From positions 5,515,216 through 5,549,074 of the forward strand of contig NC_057756.1 of the NCBI RefSeq assembly GCF_004010195.1: a DNA stretch of 33,859 nucleotides. The letters run 5' to 3'. The DNA comes from Chiloscyllium plagiosum. Taxonomy: Eukaryota. The notes below the pieces were generated by a model. It saw only the letters and a program-made list of their open reading frames with translations, was not told the DNA's origin and made no database searches. How positions within the stretch are numbered: position 1 is the first letter of the stretch; every line of letters starts with the position of its first letter. Below, in pieces: positions 691 to 29,702 of the stretch. The position numbers and the translations under genes were made by a program.

Positions 691-700
691 CTTCATCCTA

Positions 701-833
701 TTCCTGATGAAGGGCATTTACCCGAAACGTCGATTTTCCTGCTCCGCAGATGCTGCCTGACCTGCTGTGCTTTTTCAGCACCACTCTGATCTAAACTCTG
801 GTTTCCAGCATCTGCAGTCCTCACTTTTGCCTA
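701..833 (+). mobile_element. Short Penelope-like non-autonomous element (family A) with hammerhead motif at 702-733
   Basis: TC-CTGATGA-A-GGG catttaCCC-GAAACGTC-GA, then GATGCTGCCTGACCTGCTG...CCAGCATCTGCAGTCCTCACTTT; related copies at 21739, 29572, 30575. Confidence 0.75.
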
Positions 834-1115
834 GTTTGGGAACATGGTCAGCGTGAACTAGCTAGACTGAAGGGTCTGTTTCCATGCTGTATAACTCTAT
901 GACCTCCTTTCCAAGGATCTGATCCCACAATGTATCCTTTCTTATTACACTGGACACATATACTGCTGTTGGAAACTGTCCTGAACACAATCCATAAATA
1001 CTTGCCATTGCTGCTCCAGTATTTCAGTCTATGTTTGGGTAATTGACATCCCCCATAATAACTGCTAATGTTGATGTCTCTCTGTAATTCGATATACCCT
1101 TTCCACTTGTCTGTA
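833..1115. mobile_element. CR1 fragments: 3' tail (+, ~833-905) and endonuclease fragment (-, ~930-1115)
   Basis: GACTGAAGGGTCTGTTTCCATGCTGTATAACTCTATGAC tail; minus-strand VIMGDVNYPNID resembles the CR1 APE motif vvmGDFNxPxID. Confidence 0.7.
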
Positions 1116-1341
1116 GAAACAGTAAACAATATAATTGTGCCTTTTTCATTCTATTGTTGATGAAAGATGATGTCAAAACCTTATTGACTGAGGACAGAGG
1201 GGACTTATGAAAGACCCAAAACTGTGGAATTAAATTATACCGGCTGTTACCCAATGGTTTAGACAAAGAAATCAATTCTGGATTCTGTTTGATGTGTTGA
1301 AATCTGTAAAGTGTATTATCTAATGTCAACCCCACTTTAAA

Positions 1342-1533
1342 GGGGAGGCAATGGCCCAGTGATATTAGCACTGGACTATTTATCTGGGGACCCTGGTTCT
1401 ACTCCTGCCATGGCAGATGAAGCAATTCGAATCCAGTAAATATCTGAAATTATGAATCTAACAATGACCAGGAATCCATTATTAACTGCCTTCTGGGCAA
1501 TGACTGCTAACCTAGCCAGTTATGTCCTCACCC
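1342..1533 (+). mobile_element. tRNA-derived SINE, internally deleted
   Basis: A-box-like TGGCCCAGTG, B-box-like GGTTCTACTCC, tail shared with 596-690. Confidence 0.6.
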
Positions 1534-1659
1534 CCTTCAAAATAATCTCCTCTGAATTCAGAAAACTGCAGGATCCGTCCTCCAACATTCTCCAGAGCAG
1601 CTTGAGTGGGTGGATAGGTATGAACCCCTAAGTAGTTGTCTAACCAGGTTAGGTCTCCT

Positions 1660-1860
1660 ATTAGAAATTAGGGAGGATGGAAAAGTAGGCCATTTAGCCC
1701 ATCATGTCTACACTGGCTCATCAATTTAACCTATTGCCAATCTCTTACCTGCAATCTACACATTGTTATGAGTTAAGTAACCATCCAATGTTCTTGTGAA
1801 TGCTTCACTTGAACCTGCACCCACCACATTTCTAGCCAGTGCTTTCCATACACTAACTAC
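1660..1860 (-). mobile_element. Old CR1 3' fragment
   Basis: Minus-strand VVSVWKALARNVVGAGSSEAFTRTLDGYL resembles the CR1 ORF2 C-terminus (VVxxWNxLPxxVVEAxSxxxFKxxLD). Confidence 0.7.
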
Positions 1861-1914
1861 TGGCTTTATCTTATTGCAGGTCAATGATGAAGCAATGAAG
1901 ACATTTGGCCCAAG

Positions 1915-1990
1915 GACAGGCCAGGTGTTAGAATTAGAGGTAGGTGAGCACTTTGGGGATAGTGACCATAATTCGGTGATTTTTACACTT
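1915..1990 (+). mobile_element. CR1 endonuclease fragment
   Basis: GQVLELEVGEHFGDSDHNSVIF contains the APE catalytic SDH motif. Confidence 0.8.
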
Positions 1991-2264
1991 GAGGAACTGC
2001 AGATATCCTGGAGTTGAGATGACTTACCTGCAGCAACCTTCTTCCATTGGCCTGGGTATGATCCAACCAACAGAGAGACCACCTGAACCCCATTTACATC
2101 ATTCTGTTAGTGATCGAGAGCATATTAACCTGAAAGCCCTTGTGAAATTGCAAGAGGCCAGGAAACAGCATGAGGACAATATTGAAAGACAGGGTTTCTG
2201 ACTGAGTTAGCAAGTCACTTAGTTCAGTTAATAAGGCGCAACTTTCCCCTAATTAAACCACTCG

Positions 2265-2475
2265 AATAAAAACAAAACACTGCAGATGCTGGAAATCTGA
2301 AACCGCGTAGACAAGCAGGAGGCTGGAAGAACACAGCAAGCCAGGCAGCATCAGGAGGTGGGGAAGTCAATGTTTCAGGTATTAACCCTTCTTCAGGACT
2401 CTGAAACAAGCAAGAAAACCTGAAACAAGCACCGACAATGCTGGAGAAACTCAGGAGGCTTGGCAGCATCTGTGA
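2265..2475 (-). mobile_element. Nested short Penelope-like elements (family A variants) with hammerhead at 2365-2400 (-)
   Basis: Minus strand AGTC-CTGAAGA-A-GGG ttaata CCT-GAAACATT-GACT; the inner element (~2308-2400) interrupts a related element and is flanked by CTGAAAC repeats. Confidence 0.7.
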
Positions 2476-2477
2476 AT

Positions 2478-2700
2478 AACGTGGAGGTGCCAGTGTTGGA
2501 CTAAGGTCGACAAAGTAAAAAAAAAATCACGTAACACCAGGTTATAGTCCAACAGGTTTATTTGGAAGCTCTAGCTTTCATAGTGCTGCTCCTACATCAG
2601 GTAGCTAATGAATCAGGATCATAGGACAGAGAATTTATAGTAAAAGATCAAAGTGTTATACGAGTATTGAACAAACCTCGACTGCTGTTAAGTCTTTAAC
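2478..2700 (-). mobile_element. Penelope-like terminal repeat (family B) with degenerate hammerhead
   Basis: Reverse complement of the 9030-9330 family (AATAAACCTGTTGGACTATAACCTGGTGTT); core degraded to CTGATGTAGGAGCAGCACTATGAAAGCTA. Confidence 0.75.
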
Positions 2701-3505
2701 TTAGAACATAGAACATAGAACATAGAACAATACAGCACAGAACAGGCCCTTCGGCCCACGATGTTGTGCCAAACATTTGTCCTAGCTTAAGCACCCATCC
2801 ATGTATCTAACCAATTGCCGCTTAAAGGTCGCCAATGATTCTGACTCTGCCACTCCCACAGGCAGTGCATTCCATGCCCCCACCACTCTCTGGGTAAAGA
2901 ACCCACCCCTGACATCTCCCCTATACCTTCCACCCTTCACCTTAAATTTATGTCCCCTTGTAACACTCTGTTGTACCCGGGGAAAAAGTTTCTGACTGTC
3001 TACTCTATCTATTCCTCTGATCATCTTATAAACCTCTATCAAGTCACCCCTCATCCTTCGCCGTTCCAATGAAAAAGGCCTAGCACTCTCAACCTATCCT
3101 CGTACGACCTATTGTCCATTCCAGGCAACATCCTGGTAAATCTTCTCTACACCCTCTCCAAAGCTTTATAGGATTTATGCACATCTAGATAGGAATAATG
3201 TGATCAAGGATAGTCAGCATGGTTTTGTGAAGGGCAAGTCGTGCCTCACAAACCTTATTGAATCCTTTGAAAAGGTGACGAAGGAGGTTGATGAGGGGAA
3301 AGCGGACTTTAGTAAGGCGTTTGATAAGGTTCCCCATGGTAGGCTACTGCAGAAAATAAGGAGATATGGCATTGAGGGTGAGTTGGAGGTTGGGATTAGG
3401 AATTGGCTGGATGGAAGAAGACAGAGGGTAGTAGTTGATCATCTGCAAATTTACTGACCCACCCTTCGACTCCCTCATCCAAGTCATTAATAAAAATAAC
3501 AAACC
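2701..3505 (-). mobile_element. Young CR1 insertion with internal inversion: 3' end (-, 2701-3163), RT segment (+, 3164-3437), RT segment (-, 3439-3505)
   Basis: ORF 2782..3069(-) is the CR1 C-terminus (RRMRGDLIEVYK...FFTQRVVGAWNALP); 3200..3457(+) has SQHGF..KSCLTNL..DFSKAFDKVPH; 3439-3505(-) reads FVIFINDLDEGVEGWVSKFAD. Confidence 0.9.
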
Positions 3506-3622
3506 GATATCCTTATTCTAAATGATGAAAGGCTTAACACCAGTCTAGGTTTGTTCAATACATCCCATGAGCTATATAACACTTTGATCTTTTACTATAA
3601 ATTCTATGTCCTATGAACCTGC
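3506..3622 (+). mobile_element. Penelope-like family B fragment, inverted relative to ~2610-2705
   Basis: GATGAAAGGCTTAACA...AACACTTTGATCTTTTACTATAAATTCT is the reverse complement of ~2615-2705 and matches 9130-9225. Confidence 0.7.
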
Positions 3623-6122
3623 TGTTTTGAAGGTGTAAGGGGCACTGTACCTTTCAGAGAGTGAAAAACTAGCAAGGACTTAGAGAAGCACACAGAGTAC
3701 TGGAAAATTTAAAATGTAGCATTTGGTCAAATAGCTAGAGTAGCTGGTAGCCTGGATACAAAAAAAAACAAATTCAAATTCGGCCAATCAGTTTAAATTA
3801 TGCCCCAAGATACCAAACTCCAATCAAGTTTGAATTTAATGTTTTACCAATATTAAAACCAATGAAACGATCCAATACTTTGGGGTATAAAATCAGGAAT
3901 AATTGAACAGTTGAGGGAGAGCTGTCACGTCACTAATATATACAGATTGCCCAGAGAATAGCTGTTTTGAAAGTACCTTTATCTATCAACGACTTGTGAA
4001 ACAGAACTCGCAAAGGAAAGAAGAAGACAGAGGAAAATACAGAGGACACTCAGCAAGCTGACTGGTTTTGAAACGTGATTATACTTTTATTTGGTAAATC
4101 ATAATAAGGATTTTTTTTATCGGATCAATATTGTAGAGGAGAAGTTAAAAGATGGATTAGAGAAAGGAGTTGCAAATACTTGTTAGTTAATTATTCTCTG
4201 TTAGACTTTAAAAAAGAAAGTTGTTAATTTTTATTTTAAATAGTGACTTTTGGGATAGTTTTTTGCCTCTTGAATTTTCACTGATTGCCGCACCGGTTAA
4301 ATCTTTTCTGTGTTGCGTGTTCAAATTAGAAGGGTTGGGGCGGCGGTGGGGGGGGGGGGGTGGGGNGTTTAGGGGCTTGTCAGGATTTGAACAGTTTGGG
4401 TCTCAGATTCGTGATTTGAACAAGTTTAGGCAGATTTGAATAGATTTGGGGTTCAATAAAGCCCAGCAGATTTAAACATTTGCAGGTTATTGTTCTAGAT
4501 CTTTAAATAAAATTTGGTTGAGACAATTAGTTTAATTTCGGTGACTTGTGGTTGATTAAATTAGAAGGGAGAGAAATGGCTCTTAAAATTGGTTCTGGGG
4601 TTTCAAGATGATCCTCAAATTTGCCAAAAAGGTTTAGGAGGAAAAAAAAAAGGCCATGCTTTTAGAATTAACTAATGAGTTAGATTTGAGTTTAACCAAA
4701 AACAAAAGTAAAGCTGACCTTGTCAGGGAATTACTCAAACACTTTAGGTGTATCAGAGAAACAGACAAGTGCAGTCGAGGTCGTAAAACTTAAATTACAA
4801 TTGAGGAAATGGAGTAAGAAGATAAACAGACAGAGAGAGAGAGAGAGAGAAAAGGTTCTTAGCTGAGCAAAGAGAGAGAGAATTTGAACTTGAGAGTTTG
4901 TGACTTAGTCAGCAAAGTCAAGTTAACAGGATGGAGATTAAAAGAGAAGGTGGTGACATATGTAATTATGTTAAAACTCTGCCACATTTTGATGAGAAAG
5001 ATGTTGAAGCCTTCTTTATTTCATTGGCTAGGCAGATGGAGTGGTCCAAGGATTTATGGGTCATGTTAGTTCAGAGTAAACTGGTAGGCAGAGCTAGTGA
5101 GGTGTTTGTCATGCTGTCAGATAAGGGGGTCAAGAGATTACGAAGAGGTTAAATGGGCTATTTTAAGTGCTTATGAATTGCTACCAGATGCATATAGACA
5201 ATGGTTCAGAAACACAAAGAAGGAACCAGGCAAGACTAATGTTGAGTTCAAAAGAATTAAACATAGTCATTTTGATTGATGGGTGAGTGCTTTAAAAATA
5301 GAGAGTACCTTTGAGGCTTTAAGACAGATTATTCTACTGGTGGAATTTGAAAACTCACTTCCAGAGATGATAAGAATTCAGGTGGAGGAACAGAAAGTTC
5401 TGGCAGTGAGAAGGGCAGCAGGATTAGCAGATGAATACATGTTGGTGCATAAGACAAGCTTCCGGCCAGGATTTCATCCTGTGAGGGATAGAAGTTAGGA
5501 GAAGGAGAGATCCTACACTATGAAACCAAGAGTAGAGAGCACTGGTAAGAATTTACCACAGGATAAAAAAGAAGCCCAAGAGGGTGGAAAGGAGGTGAAA
5601 GGCCTCAGGTGTTTCCACTGTGGTAAAGTAGGACACAGAAAGTCACAGTGCTGGTGGTTAAAGAAAGGCCCTGTGGGAAAAGATGTGGGAAAAGAAGCTG
5701 AGCCAGTGGCATTAGTGAAGGGAGTAAAGGAGACCCCAATGAGAGTCAAGGAGCTGCAGGAGAGTGCACAGCCTAGACAGGGGCTGGGTATGGAGTTAGT
5801 ACCTAATCTCTACAAAGAATTTGTCTCTGTTGGGAAAGTTTCTTCAGAAAGAACAGAGGGAAGAAGGACAAGAAGCTATAATTCTGAGAGATACAGGATC
5901 TAACCAGTCACTGATAGTAAGGGATGAGTGAATCTGCACTGTTTCTGATCTGTTACCTGAGATTGTGGTAGTTTGTGGGATATGTGGGCAGACATTTAGC
6001 GTTCCCCTGTGTAAGATCAGGTTGGAGTGCCAACTCAAGACTGGGCAAATTACAGTGGGAGTGATTGACAGATTGTCAGTTTCAGGAATTCAGTTTGTTC
6101 TTGGGAATGATTAGGCAGGATC
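3623..6122 (+). mobile_element. Gmr1-like Gypsy LTR retrotransposon copy 1 (5' LTR ~3623-4366, PBS ~4370-4386, decayed gag from ATG 4576, protease), cut by gap
   Basis: LTR start TGTT(T)TGAAG; PBS TAGGGGCTTGTCAGGAT similar to tRNA-Pro PBS; gag LPHFDEKDVEAFF...YRQWFRN, IILLVEFENSLP (SCAN-like), CFHCGKVGHRKSQC zinc knuckle, LRDTGS protease at ~5884-5901; stops and frameshifts. Confidence 0.9.
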
Positions 6123-7591: not shown

Positions 7592-8299
7592 TCATAGAAT
7601 CATAGAATTCCTACAATGTGGAAACAGGCCATTTGGCCCAACAAGTCCACACCGACCCTTCGATGAGTAACCCACCCAGATCTATTCCTCTGCTACCCTA
7701 CATTTCCCCTGACTAATGCATCTAACGTACACATCCCTGAACACTATGGGACAATTTCCCATGGCCAATCCATCCTAACCTGCACATCCCTGGACACTAT
7801 GGGACAATTTCCCATGTCCAATCCACCCTAACCTGCACATCCCTGGGCGCTATGGGACAATTTCCCATGGCCAATCCACCCTAACCTGCACATCCCTGGG
7901 CGCTATGAGACAATTTCCCATGGCCAATCCACCCTAACCTACACATCCCTGGGCGCTATGGGACAATTTCCCATGGCCAATCCACCCTAACCTGCACATC
8001 CCTGGGCATTATGGGACAATTTCCCATGGCCAATCCATCCTAACCTGCACATCCCTGGGCGCTATGGGACAATTTCCTATGGCCAACCCACCTTAACCTG
8101 CACATCCTTGGGCGCTGTGGGACAATTTCCTATGGCCAACCCACCCTAACCTGCACATCTTTGGACTGTGGGAGGAAACCCACACAGATACGGGAAGAAT
8201 GTGCAAACTCCACGCAGATAGTCGCCCGAGGCTGGAATCGAACCTGGGTCTCTGGTGCTGTGAGGCAGCAGTGTCAACCACTGAGCCACCATGCCGTCC
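7592..8299 (-). mobile_element. HE1-type (V-SINE) tRNA-derived SINE with CR1-like tail and an internal 53-bp x8 tandem expansion
   Basis: Minus-strand head TGGCTCAGTGG (A box) and GGTTCGATTCC (B box), GGAGTTTGCACATTCTTCCCG core, GATTCTATGA tail; inserted in the Gypsy RT. Confidence 0.9.
7735..8158. repeat. 53-bp tandem repeat, 8 copies, inside SINE
   Basis: Unit CCCTGGGCGCTATGGGACAATTTCCCATGGCCAATCCACCCTAACCTGCACAT counted 8 times. Confidence 0.95.
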
Positions 8300-8819: not shown

Positions 8820-9029
8820 TGTCCAGCTTTGTGAAGGACAGCTCCCCTGACCAACTTTTACAGACATGTCCTCTCTGTGAGGGATCAGGTATTTACCCAC
8901 CTGTGTGAAGTGGTCAAATGGCCTCCTCCTAGATCTATTTCCTGTGTTTGTATGTTAAACAAAATATGACCTGTGAAGTCAGTTTTTACTCTGGAATCTG
9001 ACTTAAACGTTACTAACATCAACATATTG

Positions 9030-9330
9030 TCTAGCTATCACCATTGTTAACAGCTAACCCGAGAATGCAACTTAAAAAAAAAGGGTTTTGTGATTTACAC
9101 ATGAAAGAAGTGAAACTATCACGGTATTCTAACAGATGAAAGGCTTAACAGACAATCAATTTTTCAATGTATAATTTCAGTTACATCACACTGCAAATTT
9201 TTGCTATAAATTCTGTGTTATGATCGAGCCCTCCACAATCACCTGATGAAGGAGCGTCGCTCCGAAAGCTAGTGCTTCCAAATAAACCTGTTGGACTATA
9301 ACCTGGTGTTGTGTGGTTTTTAACTTTGTT
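9030..9330 (+). mobile_element. Penelope-like terminal repeat (family B)
   Basis: Contains a hammerhead followed by AATAAACCTGTTGGACTATAACCTGGTGTTGTG; other copies at 2478-2700, 3506-3622, 26590-26705. Confidence 0.8.
9240..9274 (+). ncRNA. Minimal type I hammerhead ribozyme motif
   Basis: CAC-CUGAUGA-A-GGAGC guc GCUCC-GAAAGCUA-GUG: 3-bp stem I, 5-bp stem II, palindromic AGCU stem III region, UA cleavage site. Confidence 0.75.
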
Positions 9331-9842
9331 ACTAACATGAGATGTGAGGGATGGTCTTATGGGCTCTGAGGTCATTGAAGTCAAGAGGCAGATGTGTCTC
9401 TTTTTAAAGAATCATGGTTTTGGAAAAAGACAGTTGTATCTCTGCTTAGGTTTATCTCACAGATTTTAATAACGGCTTTGTGCCTGTTGTTAACAGTTTC
9501 CTCAGAGTGGAAGTATTACTGTGGAGTGTTTGAGATCTTTGACTAAGGTCAAACTCAGATAAATGACAGGTAAAAGTAAAACCAGACGAACAGTAGAGGG
9601 GAAATACTTAAAGTGATTAGCCATCCTTTCAAACTGTAAAAAGGATATCCTGAAATTAAAACATCGCAGCAAGAGTTAGTTAATGTTAGAAATGAAAGAT
9701 AAAACTTGACTGAGAGACAGAAAGAAACGCAAAACTGTGAGTTAAGAGAGTACTGCAAACAACAAAAGCTGCAGATCACAGCGGGTCAGACAGCTTCCGT
9801 GGAGAGACAGCAAGCTAACGTTTCAAGTCTAAATGACTCTTC

Positions 9843-10049
9843 GTGCTGCATGCAATTCTGGTCTCCCTTCTATCAGAAGGATGCTGTGAAACTTGAAAGG
9901 GTTCAGAAAAGATTTACAAGGATGTTGCCAGGGTTGGAGGGTTTGAGCGACAGGGAGAACCTGAATGGGCTGAGAGTATTTTCCCTGGAGCTTGAAGGGT
10001 TGAGGAACAACTTTATAGTAGTTTATAAAATTATGAGGTACATGGATAA
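9843..10049 (+). mobile_element. CR1 ORF2 3' part, left half (continues at 20258)
   Basis: CMQFWSPFYQKDAVKLERVQKRFTRMLPGL...VYKIMRYMD; resumes as ATAGGGTGAATAG... at 20258. Confidence 0.9.
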
Positions 10050-12628
10050 TGTTATGAAGCTGGAGGCACTGTTACGACAGGGGGAAAACCCGCCTGCTTA
10101 ATTTAAACCAGCCACACAGAAGAGATTTATCCCGTGCAGTAACCTGTGAAAACCCGAGAGGCCAAGAACTATTTAAAGTAAAAATTAACAACTTTATTAC
10201 TTAAAATAGAACAGAGAATAATTAATGAACAGCTACTTACAACTCTTTCCTCTAACCTATCTTTTATCTTCCCTTCTACAATATTAGTCCAATAAAATCT
10301 CCCCGATTAAGATTAACCAAACACTCAAGTTTTCAAAACCAGCCAGTTGTTTGGATTTTCCTGTTTGGAGCTTCCTGTGCTTTTTTTGCTTCTTTTCAGG
10401 GATTATGCTTCACAGGTTATGGATCGATAAAGGTACCTTTAAGAGAGCTATTGTCTGGGCAGCAGGCAGATGCTGGTGACTTGGCAGTTCTCCTCCCAAA
10501 TGTACAATTTTCCCTGGTCTTATACTCCCGAAGCATCAGATTGTGTCATTGGCTTTTAAGATTATCAATATACTTAATTTAAACTTGAATGGAATTTGAT
10601 ATTTTTCGGGGTATAATTTAAACTGATTGGCTGAATTCAGATCTGTTTTTATCTCCAGGCAACCAGCTACACCAGCTGCTGGACCACATGTGACACTGTA
10701 TCTTGTTGATACACTTGATGCTGTATCAGGTAGTCCTGCTAGCTTTTAACTCTCTTAAAGGTATAGTATCCTTTACACCTTCATAACACCTCCCTTGTAA
10801 GAAAAAAATGAACCATCATAATGAAAAAATGGCTTCATTTTGTTGTATTCTTTAAACACATTACCCTAATATATAGATAATTTTATAAAACAATAAATAA
10901 GTCCAAATCTCATTTAAACTTTATCAGTTAAATCCATGATAATGCATCTGTGATTACATTCTTGTGACATGCAGCGTGTATGATTTTTAAATTAACAGTC
11001 AGTAACATAAGACTCCAACAAAATAGTCTCATATTCTTGTCTTTAAAGCGATCTAAGAATGTAAGTGGATTGTGATCCGTGTACACCACCGTCTCCGGCA
11101 TATTGTTCATGACATACACATTAATATGTTGTCAGGCCAGGACCAAACTCAATCGTTCCTCTTCGATTGTGGAGTATTCCCTCTGGGGGATGTTTGAAAA
11201 GTAACCAACTGGCCGTTCAATCCCATCCTCACCTTCCCGTAAGAGGACAGCTCCAACTCCAATGTCACGAGCATCGATGGCGACTTTAAAAGGTTTTGAA
11301 AACTTTGGTCTAGCCAAAACTGGTTTGGTGGTTAATATCAATTTCAAATGTTCGACTGTCTCCTGGCATTGTTCTGTCCACCGAAACTTTGTGTCTCCTT
11401 CAGCAGTTCTGTTAATAGTGCCACTACACTGCTGAAGTTTGGAACAAAATTTCGAAAGATTTTGCTAACTGAACCTCAACTCCTTCATCTTTTTCTTTTA
11501 CTTACTGTTTTGTGCTGTGACTTACGATAGTGGGATCTGGTTACCACACAGTCTGGGAAAATACCAGGATATTTCTGTTTTAACTCCTCGGTTTCTTGGT
11601 CTTCCTTGGACTTCTCCACAACAAGGGGGTGTCGCTCCCACCTTGGACCCTGCTAAATCATTCCCAACTGAATTCCTGGAACTGACAATCTGTCAATCAC
11701 TCTCACTGTAACTTCTTCAATCTTAAGTTGGCACTCCAACCTGATCTTACATGGGAAACGCTAAATTTCTGTCCGTCTCTCCAACAAATTACCACACTCT
11801 CGGGTAACAGATCATAAAGAGTTCATATTCACTCATCCCTTACTACCAGTGACTGGTTAGATCCTGTATCTCTCAGAATTATAGCTTCTTGTCCTTTTCC
11901 CCCTGTTCTTTCTGAGTAAACTTTACCCACAGAGATGAATTCTTTGTTGAGGTTAGGTACTAACTCTATCCCCAGCCCCTGCCCAGGCTGCGCACTCTCC
12001 TGTCACTCCTCAGTTCTCCTTCACTATTACCACTGGCTTAGCTTCTTTTACCACGTCTTTTCCCACAATGCCTTTCTTTAATGACCAGCACTGCGTCTGT
12101 ACGTGTCCCACCTTCTGGCAGTGAGAACACCTTTTCCCAGTGCCCTTCTGTCACCACTGACACTGTAAGTTTCTGTGTCCCACTCATTACGGTGAACACA
12201 CCTGAGGCCTTTCACCTCCTATCCACCTTCTTTATCCTGTGTTAAATTCTTACCAGTGCTCTCTACTCTTGGTTTCATAGCGTAGGATTTCCCCTTCTCC
12301 CAACTTTTATCCCTCAAAGCACAAAATTCTGACCGGAAGCTTGTCTTATGCACCAACATGTATCCATCTGCTCATTCTGCTGTCCTTCCCATTTCCTGAA
12401 CTCTCTGTTCCTTCATGTGAATTCTTACCATCTCTAGAAGTAAGTTTTTAAACTTTTCCAGCAGAATAATCTCTCACAGAGCCTCAAAGGTCTTATCTAT
12501 TTTTTAAAGCATGCACCTATCTATCAAAATGACTATGTTTAATTCTTTCGAACTCAAGTCTTTGAACATAATTCTGACCTGGCTCCTTCTTTGTGTTTCT
12601 GAACCACTGTCTATATGCTTTTGGTACC

Positions 12629-13088: not shown

Positions 13089-13179
13089 AACAGATTTGAA
13101 TAGATTTGGGGTATGAAAAATCCCAGTAGATTTAAAGACTTGCAGGTAGTGTCCTAGATCCTTAAATAAAATAAAACAA

Positions 13180-13286: not shown

Positions 13287-13287
13287 A

Positions 13288-14834: not shown

Positions 14835-17800
14835 ATAGCTCTTAAAATTGCTAAATTGCTTTAAATTGCTGAAGGTGATTCCCAAATTTGCCAAGAAAGT
14901 TGAGAAAGAAAATAACATATTTTTAGAATTAGCAAAGAGATTAGAATTGGGTTTAACAAAAGAACAGAAGTAAAGCTGAAACTGCAGGGGAGTTACTCAA
15001 ACACTTAGATGAGTCAGAGAAACAGACAAGTGCAGGAGGGATAGGAAAATGTAAATTACGTTTGAGGGAAATGGAGTTAGAAAATAAACAAAGAGAGAAA
15101 GAGGAAAGAGAGAGGGTGAGAGAAAGGGGAAGAGAGGAAAAAGAAAAGGAGAGAAGGTTCATAGCTGAACAAAGAGAGACAGAAGGAAGGGAGAGAGATC
15201 GGGAGAAAAGAAAGAGAAATGGACAGAGAGTTTGAATTTGCGACTGAGTTTACAGCTGAGTCAGCAAAGTCAAGTTAACAGGATGGAGATGAAGAGACAA
15301 GGTAGTACAAATATGTTAAAACTCTGCCACATTTTGATAAGAAAGATGTTGAAGCCTCCTTTACTTCATTTGAAAAATTGGTCAGGCAGATGGCGTGGTC
15401 CGAGGATTTTTGGGTGATGTTAGTTCAGACTAAGCTGGCAGGCAGAGCTGGTGAGGTATTTGCCGCGCTCTCAGATAAGGGGTCAAGAGATGATGAAGAG
15501 GTTAAACAGGTTATTTTAAGTGCTTATGAATTGGTACCAAAAGCATATAGACAGCAGTTCAGAAACATAAAAAAGGAACCGGGTCAGACTTATGTTGAGT
15601 TCGACAGAATTAAACATAATCATTTTGATAGAAGGGTGTGGGCCTTAAAAATGGATAAGACCTATGAGGCTCTAAGAGAGGTTATTCTGCTGGAGGAGTT
15701 TAAAAACTCACTTCCAGAGATGGTAGGTATTCATGTGGATGAACAGAAAGTTCAGGCAGTGAGAAGAGTAGCAGAGATGGCAGATGAATATACATTGGTG
15801 CATAAAGCAAGGTTTGGCTTTCGGCAATAATTTCATCCTGTGAGGGATAGGAAGTAGGAGAAGGGGAGAGCCTACGCTACAAAACCAAGAGTAGAGAGCA
15901 CTGGTAATTGTTTGCCACAGGTTAAAAAAAGAAGCCCAAGAGGGTGAAAAGGAGGTGAAAGGCCTCAGGTGTTTCAGGTAAAGTGGGACACAGAAAGTCC
16001 TGGTGCTGGTGGTTAAAGAAACGCCCTGTGGGAAAAGATGTGGGAAAAGAAGCTGAGCCAGTGGCATTAGTGAAGGGAGTAAAGGAGACCACAAGGAGAG
16101 CCAAGGAGCTGCAGGAAAGTGCACAGCCTAGACAGGGGCTGGGGATGGAGTTAGTACCTAATCTCTACAAAGAATTCACCTCTGTGGGTAAAGTTTACTC
16201 AGGGGGAGAGAAGGACAAGAAGCTATAGTTCTGAGAGATACAGGATCTAACCAGTCACTGATAGTAAGGGATGAGTGAATCTGCACTCTTTCTGATCTGT
16301 TACCTGAGATTGTGGTAGTTTGTGGGATAGGTGGGCAGACATTTAGCGTTCCCCTGTGTAAGATCAGGTTGGAGTGCCAACTCAAGACTGGAGAAATTAC
16401 TGTGGGAGTGATTGACAGATTGTCAGTTTCAGGAATTCAGTTTGTTCTTGGGAATGATTAGGCAGGATCCGCGGTGGGAGTGACACCCCCTTGTTGTGGA
16501 AAAGCCCAGGGAAGATCAAGAAACTGAGGAGTTAAAGCAGAAATATCTTGGTATTTTCCCAGATTGTAACAAAATCCCACTACCGTAAGTTACAACACAA
16601 AACAAAAACTAAAGAGAAAGATGAAGGAGTTGTGGTTCGGTTTGCGGACACCCTGTTTGATGTAATGGTGCAGGAGAAACCTGAACAGGCAGAGGGTCAG
16701 ACAGAAGAGTTTACTCCTGAAAGGCTAATGAACTTGCAACAGCAAGACAAGACGACAAAAGATATATATGTGGATGCATACTCCGAAAAGGAGGCAGGGA
16801 ATATTCTGAAGGACTATTATCTGAAAGATAGAATCCTAAGGTAGAAATAGAGATGACGGCAGGTTGATGCGGAGGATAAATGGGCCAAAGTGCACCAGAG
16901 TGTGTTGCCAATAGCATCCAGACAGGAGGTGTTACAGATAGCACATGAACTACCTGTACCCTAGGGGTACGAAAGACTCAGGCTAAGGTACAAAACATTT
17001 TTATTGGTCTGAAATGCCCAAGATTGTGCTTAACTTTTGCCAAACATGCCAAATGGTAGGTAAGCCACAGACGGTAATAAAACCAGCCCCTTTGTTGCCA
17101 ATTCCCACATTTGAAGAACCTTCCACCCTGGTTATAATCGATTGTGTCGGTCCCCTCCCCAGAACTAAAACTGGGAACAATAATGGATGTGTCTCCAGGT
17201 TTCCGGAGGCAATTCCGTTATGGAGTATCAAGGCAAAAAGGGTGGTAGAGGAGTTAGTAGCTTTCTTCACACGGTATGGGCTACCCAGAGAGATTCAGTT
17301 GGACCAAGGGTCTAAATTTACCACCAGGCTTTTGAGGGAGGTTATGGACACAGCTTAGGTATACAGCCCTTTAAATCCAGTGCGTATCACCCTGAATCCC
17401 AGGGAGCTTTAGAAAGGTGGCATCAGACCCTGAAGCCCATGTTGAGAGCGTACTGTCAGGATTACCCGAATGATTGGGATAAAGGTATCCCAATCACATT
17501 GTCTGCCATTAGAGATGCCCCAAATGAATCTACTCAGTTTACTCCCTTTGAGTTAATATTCGGACAGGAAGTGAGAGGCCCTTTGAAACTAAAGAGGAAT
17601 TGACAGGACCAAAGTCGGAGATCTCACACTTAGATTATGTATCACAGGTGAAGGAGAGACTAAAGCTGAACAGCACCTGAGGAGCACACAGCATGAATAA
17701 AGCAGAGAGAAATTCAGAAATTCAGACATTTTTCCAAGGGGATGACGTGTTAGTACTGTTACCAGTGATAAGAGGTCACGTCAAAGCCAGGTTTAGTGGT

Positions 17801-21647: not shown

Positions 21648-21855
21648 AAGTCGAAAGGTGTGGCACAGGAAAAGCACAACGGATCAGGCAGCATCCGAGG
21701 AGCAGGAGAATCGATATTTTGGGCATCATCTCTCTCTCCTTGATGAAGGGTTTATACCCGAAATGTTGATTCTCCTGCTCCTCGGATGCTGTGCTTTTCC
21801 AGCGCCACACTTTTCGACTCTGGTCTCCAGCATCTGCAGTCCTCACTTTCTCCTG
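21648..21855. mobile_element. Family A Penelope-like element in inverted-repeat form with degenerate hammerhead (~21739-21772)
   Basis: Left arm GCATCCGAGGAGCAGGAGAATC pairs with right arm GATTCTCCTGCTCCTCGGATGC; core TTGATGAAGGGTTTATACCCGAAATGTTG. Confidence 0.75.
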
Positions 21856-22194: not shown

Positions 22195-22325
22195 CTACTG
22201 AAGAGTCATCGAAAAATAAAACATTACCTTGCTCTCTCTCCACAGATACTGCCTGACCAGCCGTGGGCTCCCACAAGTTTTGTTTTCAGTACAGATTCCA
22301 GCAACTGCAGTAACTTGCTCCTCCT
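22195..22325 (+). mobile_element. Degenerate family A-related element (related to ~9770-9842, minus)
   Basis: GAAGAGTCAT...TTGCTCTCTCTCCACAGATACTGCCTGACC...GATTCCAGCAACTGCAG. Confidence 0.55.
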
Positions 22326-24222
22326 TCAAATCCAGTTGCTGCCGAATGATATTGTCTGTTTTCCAGAGGGGTTAATGAAGGGACAAACAGAGGTTACAAA
22401 ACAGGCCCATTATATAAAGTTGGATTGAAGCCTGACTTAATAGATAGTGAGGTGGTATCTTTGGGTGGTTCACTATTAGCCTCACTAAGGCTGGTGGAAC
22501 ACCCAGTGCAATTCAGAGTAACTGGGGTGCTACAGGAGATGCCAAACACCTGTGCTGCTTCCTGACTGTGTTGTGACTAGATCTCAAGCCCATAGATGTA
22601 GCCAGCAGGAAAAGGAATCAATGAAAGATGGAAACGACTTGGAAATCCAGTCATTAGATAAAATTTACCAAAAATAAAATTCAAACTTAAGAAAATGAGG
22701 TTTACCTGTTTCGCTTAGCTTCTCCAATAGAAACACAATCAATGGACTCTGAATAGAAATCATAGCACTAAGCAGCCCACACGGTGATTGAATCAGAATC
22801 AATATCCAAGTGCTATACACAAAAGATAAAGTCTTAAAGGAAAAACAGAGACCACCTCAGATACGAGCCAATGAAGAACGGGGAGCAGTTTATCGGGTGG
22901 TGGTTCTATCTGAGCATTATAATTAAATCTCACGAGGGGCAGTTGAATTTCCAACGTCAGCTTATTTAATTATTAAGAGGTCATGGGCTAAAACATTGAA
23001 ATGTGTATTGCTCATGGTGACATAACGAAGTGGTCAAACAATGTCAGATATGCCAAGCATGTCAGGTAGTGAGGAAAACCAAATCCTCAATTAATCTTGT
23101 GCCTTCAATTCCAATACTAAATTTTAAAGAACTGCTTAGCAGAAGGATTGTGCATTAGGCATCAGCGCTTAATTGTGAAAATGGGAACAGGGAGTTAGTT
23201 CAATTTTATTCAAGACCGAAATTATGTGAAGAAATACAATCAGATCAAGGTTACAGTTTCACGTCACAGATATTCAAGGAAATAATTGTTGGTTCAGGAA
23301 TATAACAATTTACAGCCATTTATCATTCGCAATCTCAAGGAGAATTTGGAAAAGGGCATCAAACTTTAGAAACAGAAACACAGAAAATAGGCACAGGAGT
23401 AGGCCATTCGGCCCTTCAAGCCTGTAGCACCATTTAATATGATCGTGGCTGATTATGTAATCTCAGTATCCGCTTCTCGCTTTCTCCCCATTCCCCTTGA
23501 TCCCTTTATCTGCAAGGGCCACATCCAGCTCCCTCTTGAATATATCCAATGAATATCCCTACAGTTTCTTGTGGGAGAGAATTCCACAGATTCCCAACTC
23601 TCTGAGTGAAGAAATTCTTCCTCATCTCAGTGCTGAATGGCTTACCCTTAAGTCATAGAATGTGACCCATAGTTCTGGACTTCCCCGACATCAGGAACAT
23701 TCTTCCCGCATCTACCCTGTCCAGTCTCATCAGGATTTTATGTTTCTATGAGATTCCCCCTCATTCTACTAAATTCCAGTGAGTACAAGCCCAGTTGATC
23801 CAGTCTTTCTTCATATGTCAGTCCTGCCATCCCGGGAATCAGGCAGGTCAACCATCACTGGACTCCCTCAATAGCAAGAATGCCCTTCCTCAGACTCAGA
23901 GACCAAAACTGCAGACAATACTCCAGGTGTGGCCTCACCAAGGCCCTGTACAACTGCAACAAGACATCCTTAGTTCGATACTCCAATCCTCTCACTATAA
24001 AGGCCAGCATGTCATTAGCTTTCCTCACTGCCTGCTGCACTGTATACTAACTTTCAGCGAATGTTCCACCATGACACCGAGGTCTTGTTACACCTCACCT
24101 TTTCCTAAACTGCCACCATTCAGACAATAATCTGCCTTCCTGTTTTAGTGGCCAAAGTGGATAACCTCACATTTATCCATAATATTGTTGTGGTTCTGTT
24201 CGCCGAGCTGGGAATTTGTGTT

Positions 24223-24262
24223 GCAGACGTTTCGTCCCCTGTCTAGGTGACATCCTCAGTGC
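24223..24262 (-). ncRNA. Minimal type I hammerhead ribozyme motif
   Basis: GCA-CUGAGGA-U-GUC a CCU agac AGG g GAC-GAAACGUC-UGC. Confidence 0.8.
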
Positions 24263-24475
24263 TTGGGAGCCTCCTGTGAAGCGCTTCTGTGATCTTTCCT
24301 CCGGCATTTATAGTGGTTTGTCTCTGCCGCTTCCGGTTGTCAGTTCCAGCTGTCCGCTGCAGTGGTCGGTATATTGGGTCCAGGTCGATGTGTTTGTTGA
24401 TAGACCTGGACCCAATATACCAGCTACTGCAGAAAGCAGCAGCAGCAGCAGAAGCGCTTCACAGGAGGCTCCCAA

Positions 24476-24515
24476 GCACTGAGGATGTCACCCAGACAGG
24501 GGACGAAACGTCTGC
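24476..24515 (+). ncRNA. Minimal type I hammerhead ribozyme motif
   Basis: GCA-CUGAGGA-U-GUC acccagacaggg GAC-GAAACGUC-UGC; predicted cleavage after C24512 (GUC). Confidence 0.8.
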
Positions 24516-24864
24516 AACACAAATTCCCAGCTCGGCGAACAGAACCACAATAACGAGCACACGAGCTACAAATCTTCTCACAAACTTTGAATATCCACAT
24601 TATATTGCATTTGCCAAAGTATTTGAACACTCATCCAGTCTGTCCAAGTCACCCTGCAGCCTCTTAGTATCATTTGAAGACCATGATGAGAGCTAATTGC
24701 CAAGAAAATCCAAATGTTTGGAAAAAAAGGAATATCCCTCGTTACTATTTTGCATTAGGGATACTCCGAATGAGTCCAGATGCTTCCATCCTTCTCAGTT
24801 GATGAGCAGGTGAGCAGACAACTTAATCAATAAAAGAAAAGTTCAGAAACCAAAGCTCAAAGAT

Positions 24865-25390: not shown

Positions 25391-25429
25391 ACACTAGTGA
25401 ATCATGGAAGGAATATTCACCACTTTATA

Positions 25430-25712
25430 GACTTAGAATCTCAGAATTCTTACTGTGTGAAAGCAGACTATTTGGCTCATCAAGTCCACAGTCACGTGCT
25501 GAAGAGCATCCCATCCAGATCCATCCCTTTACCCCACCCCGTGGCTAATCCACCTGACCAGCACGTCTCTGGACTGTGGAGGGAAATCGGAGCATCTGGG
25601 TGGGGTCCCACGTAGATAATGTCCAAATTCCACACAGCTAGTCACCCAAGGGTGGAACTGAACCTGGGTCCTTAGCAATTTGAGGCAATAGTACTAACCA
25701 CTGAACCATCAA
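25430..25712 (-). mobile_element. HE1-type SINE, diverged
   Basis: Minus strand TGGTTCAGTGGTTAG A box and CCAGGTTCAGTTCC B box; aligns with 7592-8299. Confidence 0.8.
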
Positions 25713-25910
25713 GGTGTCCTTACTTATTGCTATATTTGTTATTTGATACTCTCCCTCTCCCATCAAATTTTATCTTACTCTGTTTCTCTCGATCATTGCC
25801 TCTCTAACACTTAGGTAGATGTTCTATAGGTTGCACTATGCTCCGTCTGCTGGCTTGTTCACATACAAAAGATCTTTGACTTAATCCAATTCCATGTCAT
25901 AAATTGTAGC

Positions 25911-26410
25911 NNNNNNNNNNNNNNNNNNNNNNNNNNNNNNNNNNNNNNNNNNNNNNNNNNNNNNNNNNNNNNNNNNNNNNNNNNNNNNNNNNNNNNNNNN
26001 NNNNNNNNNNNNNNNNNNNNNNNNNNNNNNNNNNNNNNNNNNNNNNNNNNNNNNNNNNNNNNNNNNNNNNNNNNNNNNNNNNNNNNNNNNNNNNNNNNNN
26101 NNNNNNNNNNNNNNNNNNNNNNNNNNNNNNNNNNNNNNNNNNNNNNNNNNNNNNNNNNNNNNNNNNNNNNNNNNNNNNNNNNNNNNNNNNNNNNNNNNNN
26201 NNNNNNNNNNNNNNNNNNNNNNNNNNNNNNNNNNNNNNNNNNNNNNNNNNNNNNNNNNNNNNNNNNNNNNNNNNNNNNNNNNNNNNNNNNNNNNNNNNNN
26301 NNNNNNNNNNNNNNNNNNNNNNNNNNNNNNNNNNNNNNNNNNNNNNNNNNNNNNNNNNNNNNNNNNNNNNNNNNNNNNNNNNNNNNNNNNNNNNNNNNNN
26401 NNNNNNNNNN
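25911..26410. other. Assembly gap (500 N)
   Basis: Run of N. Confidence 1.
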
Positions 26411-26589
26411 TATATAGATCAATAACTGTAATAATCTCCGTCAACAAGATCCCTGTTTATATAGATCAATAACTGTAATAATCTCCATCAGCAGGATCTC
26501 CTGTTTATATAGATCAATAACTGTAATAATCTCCATCAGCAGGATCCCTGTTTATTTAGATCAATAACTGGACTATTCTTCTTCCCTAT

Positions 26590-26705
26590 GTTAAAAATCA
26601 CGCAACATCATGTTATCGTCCAACGGGTTTATTTGTTGGACTATAACCTGGCATTGTGTGATTTTTATTTTGTTCATGCTAGTCCAACACTGATACTTCC
26701 ACATC
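26590..26705. mobile_element. Family B Penelope-like end fragment in inverted-repeat form
   Basis: AAAATCACGCAACATCATGTTATCGTCCAAC opposite GTTGGACTATAACCTGGCATTGTGTGATTTT. Confidence 0.7.
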
Positions 26706-27079
26706 TTCTTCAGAAAGATCTCCAGTTGATTTGATCAATAAATGCAATAATCTCAATCAGCAGGATATCCCACCTCCATACATCAATAACTGAATTAAAG
26801 ACCATTAATGGCACCCCCTCTCCCAAAGGAAAGTTCTCCATCAACAGGATCTCTTACTTCTCTGGATCAATAACTTTAATAATTTCCACCAGCATGTCCT
26901 TGTTTTACTATTGATCAATAAATGGCTTAATCTCAATTCGTAGGATATCCTGTCACAATAGATCCAGGCCCCCTCTTTCAATGGATCACTAAGTGGAATA
27001 CTGGCTGTCAGCAGAGTTTCCATTTCTTATAAGTCTTTAATTGGATTGACCTTCATCAAAGGGACCTTGAGGTCTTATA

Positions 27080-27376
27080 GATCATAGAATTGCTATCGTG
27101 TGGGAACAGGCTATCTGGCCCAACAAGTCCACACTGACTCTCTGAAGAGCATCCAACCCAGACTCACCCCATCCCTGTAAGCCTGCATTTCCCATGGCTA
27201 ATCCACCCTGAACTGCACATCTTTGGATTACGGGGGAAAACTGGGCCCCCCCAGAGGAAACCCACGCAGACACGTGCAGAATGTGCAAACTCCACACAGA
27301 CAGTCACCCGAGGCTGGAATTGAACTCATGTCACTGACACTATGAGGCAGCAGAGCTAACCATTTTGCCACACCAG
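27080..27376 (-). mobile_element. HE1-type SINE
   Basis: GAATGTGCAAACTCCACACAGACAGTCACCCGAGGCTGGAATTGAAC; ATCATAGAAT tail. Confidence 0.85.
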
Positions 27377-29571
27377 AACTGGACCAACTTCCATCAGAGC
27401 AATCACCAACTCCTACCGTTCATTTTCTGGGAAATTAGTAGGACCCTCAGATGTAATATATCAATAACAGGATTAATCACAATGGGCTGAATCTCCTGAT
27501 CCTTTCAATCAATAGTGGCATAATGTCCTCAGCAGAATCTCTATTACCTATAGGTCAATAACTGAAATAATAATCATCTTCAGGATCTCCCATTCCAAAT
27601 GTCAATAACGGGAATATTGTCCATCAGCAAGAACCCTGCTCCTACATATAAATAAATACAATATAAACTAGCAGGATCTCTACTTCCTATTGATAATAAA
27701 GTGGAATGATCTCCATCAACTGGATTGCTTGTTCCTAGAGATCAATAATTGCAAAGAATATCCACTAGCTAGATACTGTATCCTTTTACAATAGATCCAT
27801 ACATGGAATAATCCCATCAGCAGTACTGTATCTCCCAATCCTATTGATCAATAACTGGAATAATCTGCATTGACAGGACCTCATGCTCACATTAGTCAAT
27901 GTATGAAATGATCTCCTTCAGCAGAGTCTTAGAGATGAAAAATGGGCTCAACTTTCATCAACCAGATCTCTTGTTCCTTTCAATCAATAACAGAATAATC
28001 TCCATCAGCAGGATCTCCTGATCCTAAAAGTCAAGAACATGAGTAATCTCCATTAACAGGCTCTGCTGTTCCTATGGACCAATGACTGGAATAATCTCAA
28101 TAAGCAGGAATTTATTTTCCTACAGATCAATAATTAGAATAAATGCCATTAGCACAATGTCTTGCTCTTATAGAGCAAATATCATAAGAGTTTCCATCAG
28201 CAGGATCTACAGATCTTCCATAGATCAATTTATGGTATAATCTGCTGATGTGGGATCTCTAGTTCCAAAGATAAATAACTGGAATAATGTGTATCAGCTA
28301 CAATTCCTGTTCTGATACATGAAGAACGTGAATAATCCCTGGTAAGATCTCTTGTTTCAATATCTCGATAACTGGATTAATCTGCACCGGCAGGATCTCA
28401 TGGTCAGATGATCATGAACTGGAAGAATCTGGACCAGCAGGATCTACTCATCATAGAGATCAATAATCGAAATAATCCCCACCAGCATTATCTCCTGATC
28501 CTATAGATCACCAACTGGAACAATCTGCATCAGCAGGATCTCCTGTTCATATAGATCCATAACTGGAATAATCTCCATCAATAGGATCGCTTGTTCCCAT
28601 TGATCAATAACTTCAATAATTTGATCAGCATGTTCTCCTTTTACTATTGATCAGTAACTGGAATTATCTTGATCTGGAGGATCTCCAGTTCTAATAGATG
28701 AAGGTCCCCAAAAATCTCAATCAACAGGGTTTCCTCTTTCAATACATCAATAAGTAAAATAATGCCCATCAGTAGGATCCTCAATTCTTATAGGTCCAGA
28801 ACTGGAATGATCTCCAACAAAAATACCTCCAGTTCTTCCAGATCAGGAACTGGAGCAATTTCCATCTCAGTGATCACCAATCCCTATAGCTCAATTTCTG
28901 GAATAATGTCCATTATCAGGAGCCCCAGTTGTAATAGACTGATGACAGGAACAATCACAACCAGCAGGATCTTCTGATCCTTCAGATCAATAGTGACATA
29001 ATGTCCTCAGTAGAGTCTCCATTTCCCATTGTCAATAACTGAAATAACATCCATCTTCAGGATCTCTTTTTCCAAAAGTCAATAACTAGAATGAACTTCA
29101 TCTTTGGGATCTCCTGTTACTTTTGATCAATAATTGGATCAATCTCAATCAATAAAGTTGAAGAATAATCTTGAAAAGGATGTCCTATTCCTATTGATCA
29201 ATAACTAAACTAATTTCCATCAGCAGGTTTACTATTCCTACAGACCAATAACAGGAATAATCTCTATCTGCAGGATCTCCTGCTCTTACTTATCAAAAAC
29301 AGCAACCACTAATTCCTACACATCAATATCTGGAATAATCTCTCCTGCACAATCCTTTTCTCATATGAAATAATAATTGGAATAATCTCCATCAGCAGGA
29401 TCTCCTTGTTCCTATCGATCAATAATTGGAATAATCTCTGTTGCAGTGTTCACTAATAACTAAAGATCAATTCCTGGAATAATCTCCATCAGCAGGAGCT
29501 CCAGTTCCATTAGATTGACAATTGGTATAATCTCCGCTGAGGAGGCACTGCCAGTTAACTATGAGATACTG

Positions 29572-29702
29572 TAGGAGAAAGTGAGGTCTGCAGATGCTGG
29601 AGATCAGAGCTGAAAATGTGTTGCTGGAAAAGCGCTGCAGGTCAGGCAGCATCCAGGGAACAGGAGAATCGACGTTTCGGGCATAAGCCCTTCTTCAGGA
29701 CT
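29572..29702 (-). mobile_element. Family A Penelope-like element with intact hammerhead (29667-29702) and 15-bp TSD
   Basis: AGUC-CUGAAGA-A-GGGC uuau GCCC-GAAACGUC-GAUU; TATGAGATACTGTAG at 29560-29574 and 29707-29721. Confidence 0.85.

What the first reader, a model, noticed from the sequence alone, without database searches (positions are those of the whole stretch)
701..29702. Dense set of minimal hammerhead ribozyme motifs in at least three dissimilar short Penelope-like families
Seen: intact or near-intact cores at 702-733(+), 2365-2400(-), 9240-9274(+), 24223-24262(-), 24476-24515(+) and 29667-29702(-), with degenerate or truncated ones at ~2570-2605, ~9815-9842, ~21739-21772 and ~30555-30575. 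The families share little primary sequence. All keep CUGA(U/A/G)GA, one extra nucleotide before stem II, a family-specific stem II (GGGC/GCCC, GGAGC/GCUCC, GUC/GAC), GAAA, a mostly palindromic ACGU/AGCU mini stem III and UH, plus a short stem I. Established: Penelope-like retroelements carry minimal type I hammerheads proposed to act as dimers. Inference: shark genomes hold very high copy numbers of short, non-autonomous, ribozyme-bearing retroelements that may self-cleave host introns or yield small circular RNAs.
Basis: partly seen in the sequence, partly recalled or inferred. Interest (0 to 1): 0.75.

Follow-up and report, generated by a model that had tools for sequence, protein, structure and literature searches.

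The report
Penelope hammerheads with U6 cleavage fossils
These motifs are the known tiny hammerhead RNA at the ends of three protein-coding Penelope-type jumping genes, mostly as decaying stubs, but in eleven genomic insertions U6 RNA is joined at the predicted cut bond, so the ribozyme likely does cut the element's RNA in living cells.

Summary
The motifs are real: 6 strict cores in the window against 0.1 by chance, and 88 in 976 kb of random genome (about 3x10^5 by extrapolation). They are the minimal hammerheads described in Penelope-like element (PLE) terminal repeats in 2014. They are not separate non-coding families: longer copies of all three run into a GIY-YIG/RT frame (A, B Neptune-type; C Poseidon-type). 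Stems covary between lineages, but single copies decay neutrally, are rarely in tandem, and RNA reads cross the cut site, so host-intron cleavage and small circles are unsupported. Three results bear on mechanism. Family A stubs start 0-5 nt before the core (41 of 65), often after an extra G. Family B RNA is polyadenylated 27-30 nt behind the predicted cut. U6 snRNA is joined at the first base after the predicted cut in 11 insertions across all three families, among 91 U6-end places; none was seen elsewhere in a repeat. That is likely a DNA record of in vivo cleavage, which I did not find in print. This scan noted these points before, on other pieces of this genome and in other genomes; the U6 lead came from such a note and was retested here.

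The parts
700..832 (+). Family A (A1) PLE terminal-repeat stub; core C3 at 704, H17 at 731, predicted cut 731/732; begins 4 nt before the core, with a short inverted piece 5' of it
   Evidence: 8-nt TSD candidate at 663/827 is weak
2277..2402 (-). Older A-related stub; core C3 at 2396; palindrome decayed to ACAU; 4-bp stem I; left end read by eye
2522..2640 (-). Decayed family B copy (A9 changed, stem II broken)
9020..9327 (+). Family B (Neptune-type) 5'-truncated insertion: 3' UTR piece, TATAAA 9205-9210, core 9243-9271 (predicted cut 9271/9272), AATAAA 9281-9286, family poly(A) sites after 9298 and 9301
   Evidence: 13-nt TSD at 9009/9328; relatives run into RT+GIY-YIG; poly(A) reads are family-wide
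9770..9845 (-). Degenerate A-like copy, CUGA box lost; limits read by eye
21660..21851 (.). Inverted family A pair: 21660-21725(-) and 21741-21851(+); C3 changed to U, palindrome decayed
24185..24592 (.). One family C (Poseidon-type) insertion with inverted arms; intact cores at 24226-24259(-) and 24479-24512(+); the minus arm carries the last codons of the GIY-YIG frame (tblastn hit about 24348-24434); junction hairpin 24357-24432; an ATG at 24485 inside the ribozyme opens a frame that matches the translation of a relative
26588..26667 (.).
29575..29700 (-). Young family A (A2) stub, intact core C3 29698 to H17 29671, starts 2 nt before the core
   Evidence: 17-nt TSD at 29558/29705; its 36-nt core occurs 28,555 times exactly
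30507..30657 (.). Fold-back family A insertion, 30507-30574(-) and 30576-30657(+); both arms lack the CUGA box

Best explanation
The motifs are minimal type I hammerheads in the terminal repeats of at least three protein-coding Penelope-like retrotransposon lineages, most copies are truncated and decaying stubs, and the ribozyme likely cuts the element's own RNA at times in the germ line. Shown: link to RT/GIY-YIG frames, inverted arms, TSDs, two preferred 3' ends 30-40 nt apart, neutral decay of copies, a poly(A) site behind the family B motif, and U6 joined at the predicted cut bond. Inferred: RNA starts about 4 nt before the core (family A), so a transcript from one repeat to the next would hold two whole hammerheads that could pair through their palindromes, probably with help from the element's protein. 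Reverse transcription starts inside the RNA 85-130 nt behind the core. On uncut capped RNA it would run off the 5' end and give the 90-135-nt stubs with an extra G. Cut RNA would carry a 5'-OH end, which RtcB could join to U6 (by-catch) or to the element's own 3' end (circle, untested). Long copies would come from circles, tandem read-through or a template jump; these were not told apart.
For: ORF link: family B repeat downstream of GIY-YIG in 9 of 10 loci and 12 of 12 further loci; a 479-aa stop-free frame holds RT (Pfam RVT_1, 35.2 bits, over cut-off) and the GIY-YIG region; family A repeat downstream in 27 of 30 loci, 17 of them at 211-279 nt; family C repeat downstream in 19 of 21 tblastn rows of the random sample. 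Covariation on 13 lineage representatives: 25 double changes against 9.9 shuffled, score 0.78 against 0.27, 0 of 500 shuffles, slid registers at most 0.33. 5' ends: 41 of 65 consecutive exact A2 copies start 0-5 nt before C3, 17 reach 13 nt or more; 76 of 150 A copies start at -10..+3. Base before a start at -4: G 69, A 18, T 13 in the first 100 listed (hand count; p about 1e-18 against 0.27); G in 10 of 17 non-inverted insertions (p 0.006). 3' ends of B: 54 of 59 at 83-91 or 116-132, as for the two internal RT starts of the anole element (PMC11167929). Poly(A): 604 and 790 of 3,796 laid reads end in A-tails 12 and 15 nt after AATAAA; 56 of 59 genomic B copies extend about 20 nt or more past that site. 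U6: 11 insertions (7 A, 3 B, 1 C) join a run of 5-6 T to the first base after H17, among 91 distinct U6-end places; 8 checked on fetched DNA, 3 from 12-18-nt listings only. RtcB joining of U6 to 5'-OH RNA is published for L1 (PMC6789731, abstract).
Against: No cleavage assay was possible. Poly(A) reads show no starts or ends at the cut in A or B. Family A stubs show no excess of 5' ends at the cut (0.88 per nt against 0.91 and 0.85 either side); B shows a weak one (8 of 62; p 0.02). Stem I of A1/A2 has a U.U mismatch, and minimum-energy folds of short monomers and dimers mostly do not give the active fold. The extra G lies inside the TSD in 8 of 10 non-inverted cases (read by eye), so it is read as a microhomology preference, not a free extra base. 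Start pile-up (A) and poly(A) site (B) are shown in different families; B has no strong start pile-up (8 of 62 at -10..+3) and C none (3 of 27 within 16 nt). One arm of the C chimera is imprecise; two B junctions are exact only for the short GT variant. U6 also joins two places inside the family A ORF and many SINE 5' ends, so template switching may contribute. No full-length element with two repeats was found or sought to the end. In the anole element, ribozyme mutants did not affect insertion in vitro.
Confidence: 0.78

Rival explanations
1. The 90-135-nt units are self-propagating non-autonomous elements (SINE- or retrozyme-like): stubs are transcribed again, perhaps from an internal promoter, and copied by PLE proteins in trans, possibly through small circles.
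For: Stubs outnumber long copies in family A (48 of 65 within 12 nt), have TSDs, and contain the RT start region. Drosophila Penelope has an internal promoter (PMC2377424 passages). Tandem PLE-derived retrozymes were reported in one cartilaginous fish (bioRxiv 10.64898/2026.07.22.740005).
Against: No tandem array holds a motif in the window; 6 same-strand gaps of 500 nt or less among 211 copies; 5' ends are ragged over 0-5 nt and stubs share the exact core of ORF-linked copies; stubs lack the upstream TATA-like box; a single stub cannot excise a circle. A formal test for stub-only subfamilies was not run.
Confidence: 0.1
2. The motif no longer cuts; the RNA 5' end at H17 seen in U6 chimeras is made by a protein nuclease or by an RT stall followed by a template switch to U6.
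For: Template switching is a published alternative for U6/L1 chimeras (PMC11838501 passages). In vitro activity of such motifs is low (PMC4209133). No reads began at the cut in anole RNA-seq or here.
Against: The junction is the same core-defined bond in three families whose sequence after the cut differs; ordinary family A stubs do not stall there; core and stems are kept across lineages. A template switch from a cut end would still need the cut.
Confidence: 0.08
3. Dispersed copies act on the host: they cleave introns or UTRs that carry them and are kept for that role.
For: About 90 strict motifs per Mb; copies are read through in host transcripts (95% of reads run on into unlike sequence); the ACGU palindrome is shared by A and C, so mixed dimers are conceivable.
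Against: G12 in CpG is changed in 35 of 130 copies against 60 of 320 flank CpG bases; inner-core A/U 13 of 442 against 87 of 2,192 in flanks, p 0.34. Inverted partners (75 of 211) lie on opposite strands. Reads of both strands cross the site. Strand bias within genes was not tested here. The host effect seen in RNA is a poly(A) site, not a cut.
Confidence: 0.04

Closest known systems
[quoted passage not shown]
   Same: Same core, extra nucleotide after A9, G10.1-C11.1 pair, palindromic 15.1-16.1, many sequence families per genome, mostly single motifs ascribed to truncated PLEs.
   Different: Sharks are not named in the parts read; counts there are about 4,000 (coelacanth) and 9,000 (Xenopus) against about 3x10^5 extrapolated here; the paper states there is no in vivo evidence, whereas U6 junctions here point to in vivo cutting.
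Poseidon element of Anolis (PAc), Frangieh et al. 2024 (PMC11167929; parts 1-2 of 4 read)
   Same: Internal RT start at two sites that define a 30-40-nt tail; ORF start inside the ribozyme with the cut 26 nt later (28 nt in family C here); protein-assisted cleavage in vitro.
   Different: Different species and, for A and B, a different clade; they found no RNA-seq ends at the cut; the parts read do not describe a start pile-up, poly(A) site or U6 chimeras.
EN+ PLE clades Neptune and Penelope/Poseidon (PMC8557442, passages)
   Same: 5' truncation, inverted 5' copies, optional tail; a CX2-5CxxC linker before GIY-YIG in A and B, absent in C.
   Different: Clade names rest on that motif only; Nematis shares it and no tree was built.
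Non-LTR retrozymes (PMC7229834 passages; bioRxiv 10.64898/2026.07.22.740005 parts 1-2 of 5)
   Same: Type I hammerheads, PLE-related, high copy number.
   Different: Retrozymes are tandem 150-450-nt non-coding repeats that give circles; these copies are solo or inverted and continue into a protein frame.
U6/LINE-1 chimeras made by RtcB (PMC6789731, abstract and outline)
   Same: U6 ending in about five U joined in sense to a retroelement 3' part and retrotransposed.
   Different: L1 partners are variably truncated; here the junction in the repeat is fixed at the ribozyme cut bond and the carrier is a PLE.

Membership tests
PLE minimal type I hammerhead | CUGANGA and GAAA..UH boxes with stems I and II | tested here: met
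   intact core in 74 of 132 random copies of six subfamilies
PLE minimal type I hammerhead | Extra nucleotide after A9, G10.1-C11.1 pair, palindromic mini stem III | tested here: met
   first stem II pair G-C in 11 and G-U in 2 of 13; ACGU or AGCU in 61 of 88 strict hits
PLE minimal type I hammerhead | Covariation of stems between families | tested here: met
   the 13 rows were hand-picked, related, and the structure was set from them, so the shuffle count is not a probability
PLE minimal type I hammerhead | Self-cleavage at H17 as dimer or with protein | not testable with these tools
   Indirect support only: U6 junctions
EN+ Penelope-like element | One frame with RT followed by GIY-YIG upstream of the repeat | tested here: met
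   B. C: RT and EN pieces (Pfam RT below cut-off, EN no hit). A: GIY-YIG only (Pfam 20.3 bits, below cut-off); its RT was not examined
EN+ Penelope-like element | 5' truncation, inverted 5' copy, 30-40-nt optional tail, TSD | tested here: met
EN+ Penelope-like element | Full-length unit flanked by two direct pLTRs | tested here: inconclusive
   None seen in 16 loci of 8-10 kb; not searched further
Neptune versus Penelope/Poseidon clade | CX2-5CxxC linker before GIY-YIG; RT phylogeny | tested here: inconclusive
   Linker present in A and B, absent in C; no tree built
Non-LTR retrozyme | Tandem short repeats with a hammerhead in each unit | tested here: not met
Non-LTR retrozyme | No protein-coding link | tested here: not met
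Non-LTR retrozyme | Abundant small circular RNA | tested here: inconclusive
   No back-joint at the cut in one poly(A) run, 2% of it read; such a library misses circles
RtcB-made U6 chimera | U6 ending in a five-U tract joined in sense to the partner | tested here: met
   5 T in 10 insertions and 6 in one
RtcB-made U6 chimera | Ligation at RNA level rather than template switch | not testable with these tools
   Both arms of two inverted insertions carry U6, which fits but does not prove it

The most novel reading that the evidence does not exclude
The PLE terminal repeat is laid out like a retroviral R region that holds exactly one ribozyme (start just before it, poly(A) site just after it, RT start beyond that). 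Each unit-length RNA therefore carries its own dimer pair, cuts both ends in vivo, and is closed by RtcB into a circle that templates the long copies, while uncut capped RNA yields hundreds of thousands of run-off stubs. U6 chimeras are the fossil by-catch of that ligation step.
Probability: 0.35. Interest if true: 0.75.

Novelty: new member of a known kind. Interest (0 to 1): 0.5.

Why it matters
Whether the weak minimal hammerheads of animal Penelope-like elements cut in vivo has been open since 2014; a 2024 study found cleavage only with protein in vitro and no RNA-seq ends at the site. U6 junctions at the same bond in three unrelated families are a cheap, genome-only read-out of that cut and can be counted in any PLE-rich assembly. 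With the start pile-up and the poly(A) site they give a testable layout for how this class completes reverse transcription. The motifs as such are known, and the dispersed copies look inert; their likelier effect on host genes is to supply poly(A) sites.

Tried and rejected
Rfam scan: no hammerhead model matched; the mir-133 hit at 24357-24432 is below its cut-off and is the inversion-junction hairpin. Energy folding of monomers and dimers was uninformative. A first comparison suggested core conservation within families (38 of 1,306 against 348 of 6,099, p 1e-5); rejected because copies were selected to align up to C3 and flanks carry lineage variants; the base-matched inner-core test gave p 0.34. 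A pile-up of ordinary stub ends at the cut: absent in A, weak in B. Sequencing runs: no RNA holder listed; run X20 laid no reads (no test); contigs of X1 cannot show ends. Searches used top BLAST hits and are biased, so end statistics rest. The random sample covers only large contigs, and not their full lengths. Literature searches that found no report of shark PLE hammerheads, of a start or poly(A) layout or of U6-hammerhead chimeras; the library lacks most subscription papers, Lunse et al. (dimer cleavage) was seen only as a reference entry, and unseen supplements of PMC4209133 and of the 2026 preprint may list cartilaginous fish. No protein fold, complex or tree was run.
Full report
Observation. 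The ten sites are in the sequence as described, with small corrections. A strict descriptor (core boxes, stem II of at least 3 bp, two-base mini stem III) gives 6 hits in the window against 0.1 in Markov shuffles, and 88 in 100 random 10-kb stretches (975,918 non-N bases) against 2-3 in three shuffles. BLAST with 11 seeds finds 295 pieces in that sample, 200 of them covering the core. Extrapolated to about 3.4 Gb this is about 3x10^5 strict motifs and 7x10^5 core-covering copies (the sample covers large contigs only). Exact counts agree in scale: the 36-nt core of the 29667 copy occurs 28,555 times and a degenerate A1/A2 33-mer 62,227 times, with 0 for the reversed controls.

Three groups, all ends of coding elements. 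Group A (702, 2365, 21739, 29667, 30555, probably 9815) shares one tail; B (9240, 2570) and C (24223/24476) are unrelated to it outside the core. Longer copies of B continue upstream into a GIY-YIG frame in 9 of 10 and 12 of 12 loci, one with a 479-aa stop-free frame that Pfam scores as RT. A GIY-YIG piece found 261 nt upstream of an A copy retrieved 30 loci, 27 with an A repeat downstream and 17 at 211-279 nt. For C, 19 of 21 tblastn rows in the random sample have the repeat downstream, mostly about 81 nt away, and the window's own minus arm encodes the last GIY-YIG codons. A and B have the CX2-5CxxC linker that PMC8557442 gives for Neptune and Nematis; C lacks it and has an ATG inside the ribozyme 28 nt before the cut, as in the anole Poseidon element (26 nt). 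The 24223/24476 pair is one inverted insertion, a standard PLE form; 75 of 211 random copies have such an opposite-strand partner.

Selection acts on source elements, not on copies. Across 13 lineage representatives stems I and II covary (25 double changes against 9.9; hand-picked, related rows). Within families, G12, which sits in a CpG, is changed in 35 of 130 copies against 60 of 320 flank CpG bases, and inner-core A/U positions differ in 13 of 442 against 87 of 2,192 (p 0.34). Only 6 same-strand neighbour gaps are 500 nt or less, and no tandem array carries a motif.

Where copies start and end. I saw family A starts piling up just before the core in biased top hits; earlier notes of this scan read this as run-off from a capped RNA with an extra G, and I tested it. 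Of 65 consecutive exact A2 copies on one contig, 41 start 0-5 nt before C3 and 17 reach 13 nt or more. Genome-wide, 8,782 of 28,555 keep 7 nt of upstream source sequence. In 1.14 Mb of unselected DNA 76 of 150 A copies start at -10..+3. Where the start is at -4 and the next base is not the source C, it is G in 69 of the first 100 listed (hand count) and in 10 of 17 non-inverted insertions, 8 times inside the TSD. That fits a cDNA ending in a cap-templated C that anneals to a target G (inference; cap copying by RTs is recalled, not from a call). The -4 position lies in an initiator-like TCATTCC about 32 nt after a TATA-like box (read; consensus recalled). B and C show little or no such pile-up. 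3' ends are bimodal: 54 of 59 B copies end at 83-91 or 116-132 nt from C3, and A2 copies end near 90 or 125 (by eye), as expected from two internal RT starts.

RNA. One poly(A) single-cell run with the same species label was laid at 88% likeness, so reads are family-wide and only 2% of the run was read. For A2, 2,123 reads lie on both strands, 95% run on into unlike sequence, and no place shows many starts or ends: read-through in host transcripts. For B, 604 and 790 of 3,796 reads end in non-genomic A-tails after 9298 and 9301, 12 and 15 nt behind AATAAA and 27-30 nt behind the predicted cut, with one strand about 85%. These molecules are uncut; cut 3' pieces would be too short to see. 56 of 59 genomic B copies extend about 20 nt or more beyond this site, so they were not primed at the mRNA tail.

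U6 junctions. A U6 family search (48 matches) and two end-motif searches (24 and 60 matches) gave 91 distinct places, including true genes and some chance matches. Eleven insertions join U6 to a PLE repeat: 7 A, 3 B, 1 C. In all, a run of 5-6 T is followed by the first base after H17. Eight were checked on fetched DNA, three from short listings only. One C arm is imprecise, and two B cases are exact only for the short GT variant. None of 37 U6 ends tested by BLAST joins a repeat at another place apart from that C arm; two join inside the family A ORF, and many join SINE 5' ends. Hammerhead cleavage leaves a 5'-OH (established chemistry), and RtcB joins U6 cyclic-phosphate ends to 5'-OH RNA before retrotransposition (PMC6789731). 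Whether by ligation or template switch, an RNA 5' end existed at that bond in cells that passed it on. The sequence after the cut differs between the families, so the shared core is the simplest cause.

Model. Shown: coding PLE ends, neutral stubs, B poly(A) site, two 3' ends, U6 junctions. Inferred: transcription start just before the motif; two whole ribozymes per unit RNA; occasional, probably protein-assisted dimer cleavage; run-off stubs from uncut RNA; long copies from circles (proposed in PMC4209133), tandem read-through or a jump. The start and the poly(A) site are shown in different families, which weakens the combined layout.

Comparison and verdict. The motif and its host are known (PMC4209133, parts 1-2 of 4; reviews PMC6155905 and PMC6765202, passages). 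The retrozyme definition is not met (PMC7229834 passages; 2026 preprint, parts 1-2 of 5). TATA and initiator in a pLTR were noted for a rotifer element (PMC3846280 passages). Searches found no paper on U6-hammerhead chimeras or on shark PLE hammerheads, within a library that lacks most subscription papers and with supplements unseen. This scan had 702 notes with these words. Novelty: new member of a known kind. Interest 0.5, carried by the U6 evidence on an open question and not by the motifs.

Noticed in passing
window 9281-9301 (family B, genome-wide): The family B repeat is a working poly(A) site with a GU-rich element behind it; about 57 pieces per Mb of family B could end host transcripts.
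   Followed up: partly
L331 (G000:C13:35730267): Full U6 joined to an unidentified about 120-nt GC-rich sequence inside an 18-nt TSD; the partner's 5' end may be another processed RNA end.
   Followed up: no
L332, L333, L337, L342, L345-L350 and others: Many U6 copies are joined within a few bases of the 5' end of a tRNA-like SINE.
   Followed up: no
L339, L343: U6 joined inside the family A GIY-YIG frame at two different places.
   Followed up: partly
L100, L116, L127, L144, L174 (subfamily A3): A young A subfamily has a perfect 4-bp stem I and an AATAAA in its tail, unlike A1/A2; a good candidate for cleavage assays.
   Followed up: no
window 26411-29543: Degenerate 47-48-nt tandem repeat over 3 kb, next to an assembly gap at 25911-26410; no long open frame found in it.
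   Followed up: no
window 15306-15827 (+), with repeats 5126-6122, 11548-12507, 15479-16567: A 174-aa open frame in a repeat present three times in the window; it looks like a gag-like retrotransposon piece by eye.
   Followed up: no
window 7722-8159, 32119-32679, 33255-33854: Minisatellites of 53, 32 and 21 nt; the 53-nt unit matches a dispersed repeat at 25533 and 27187.
   Followed up: no
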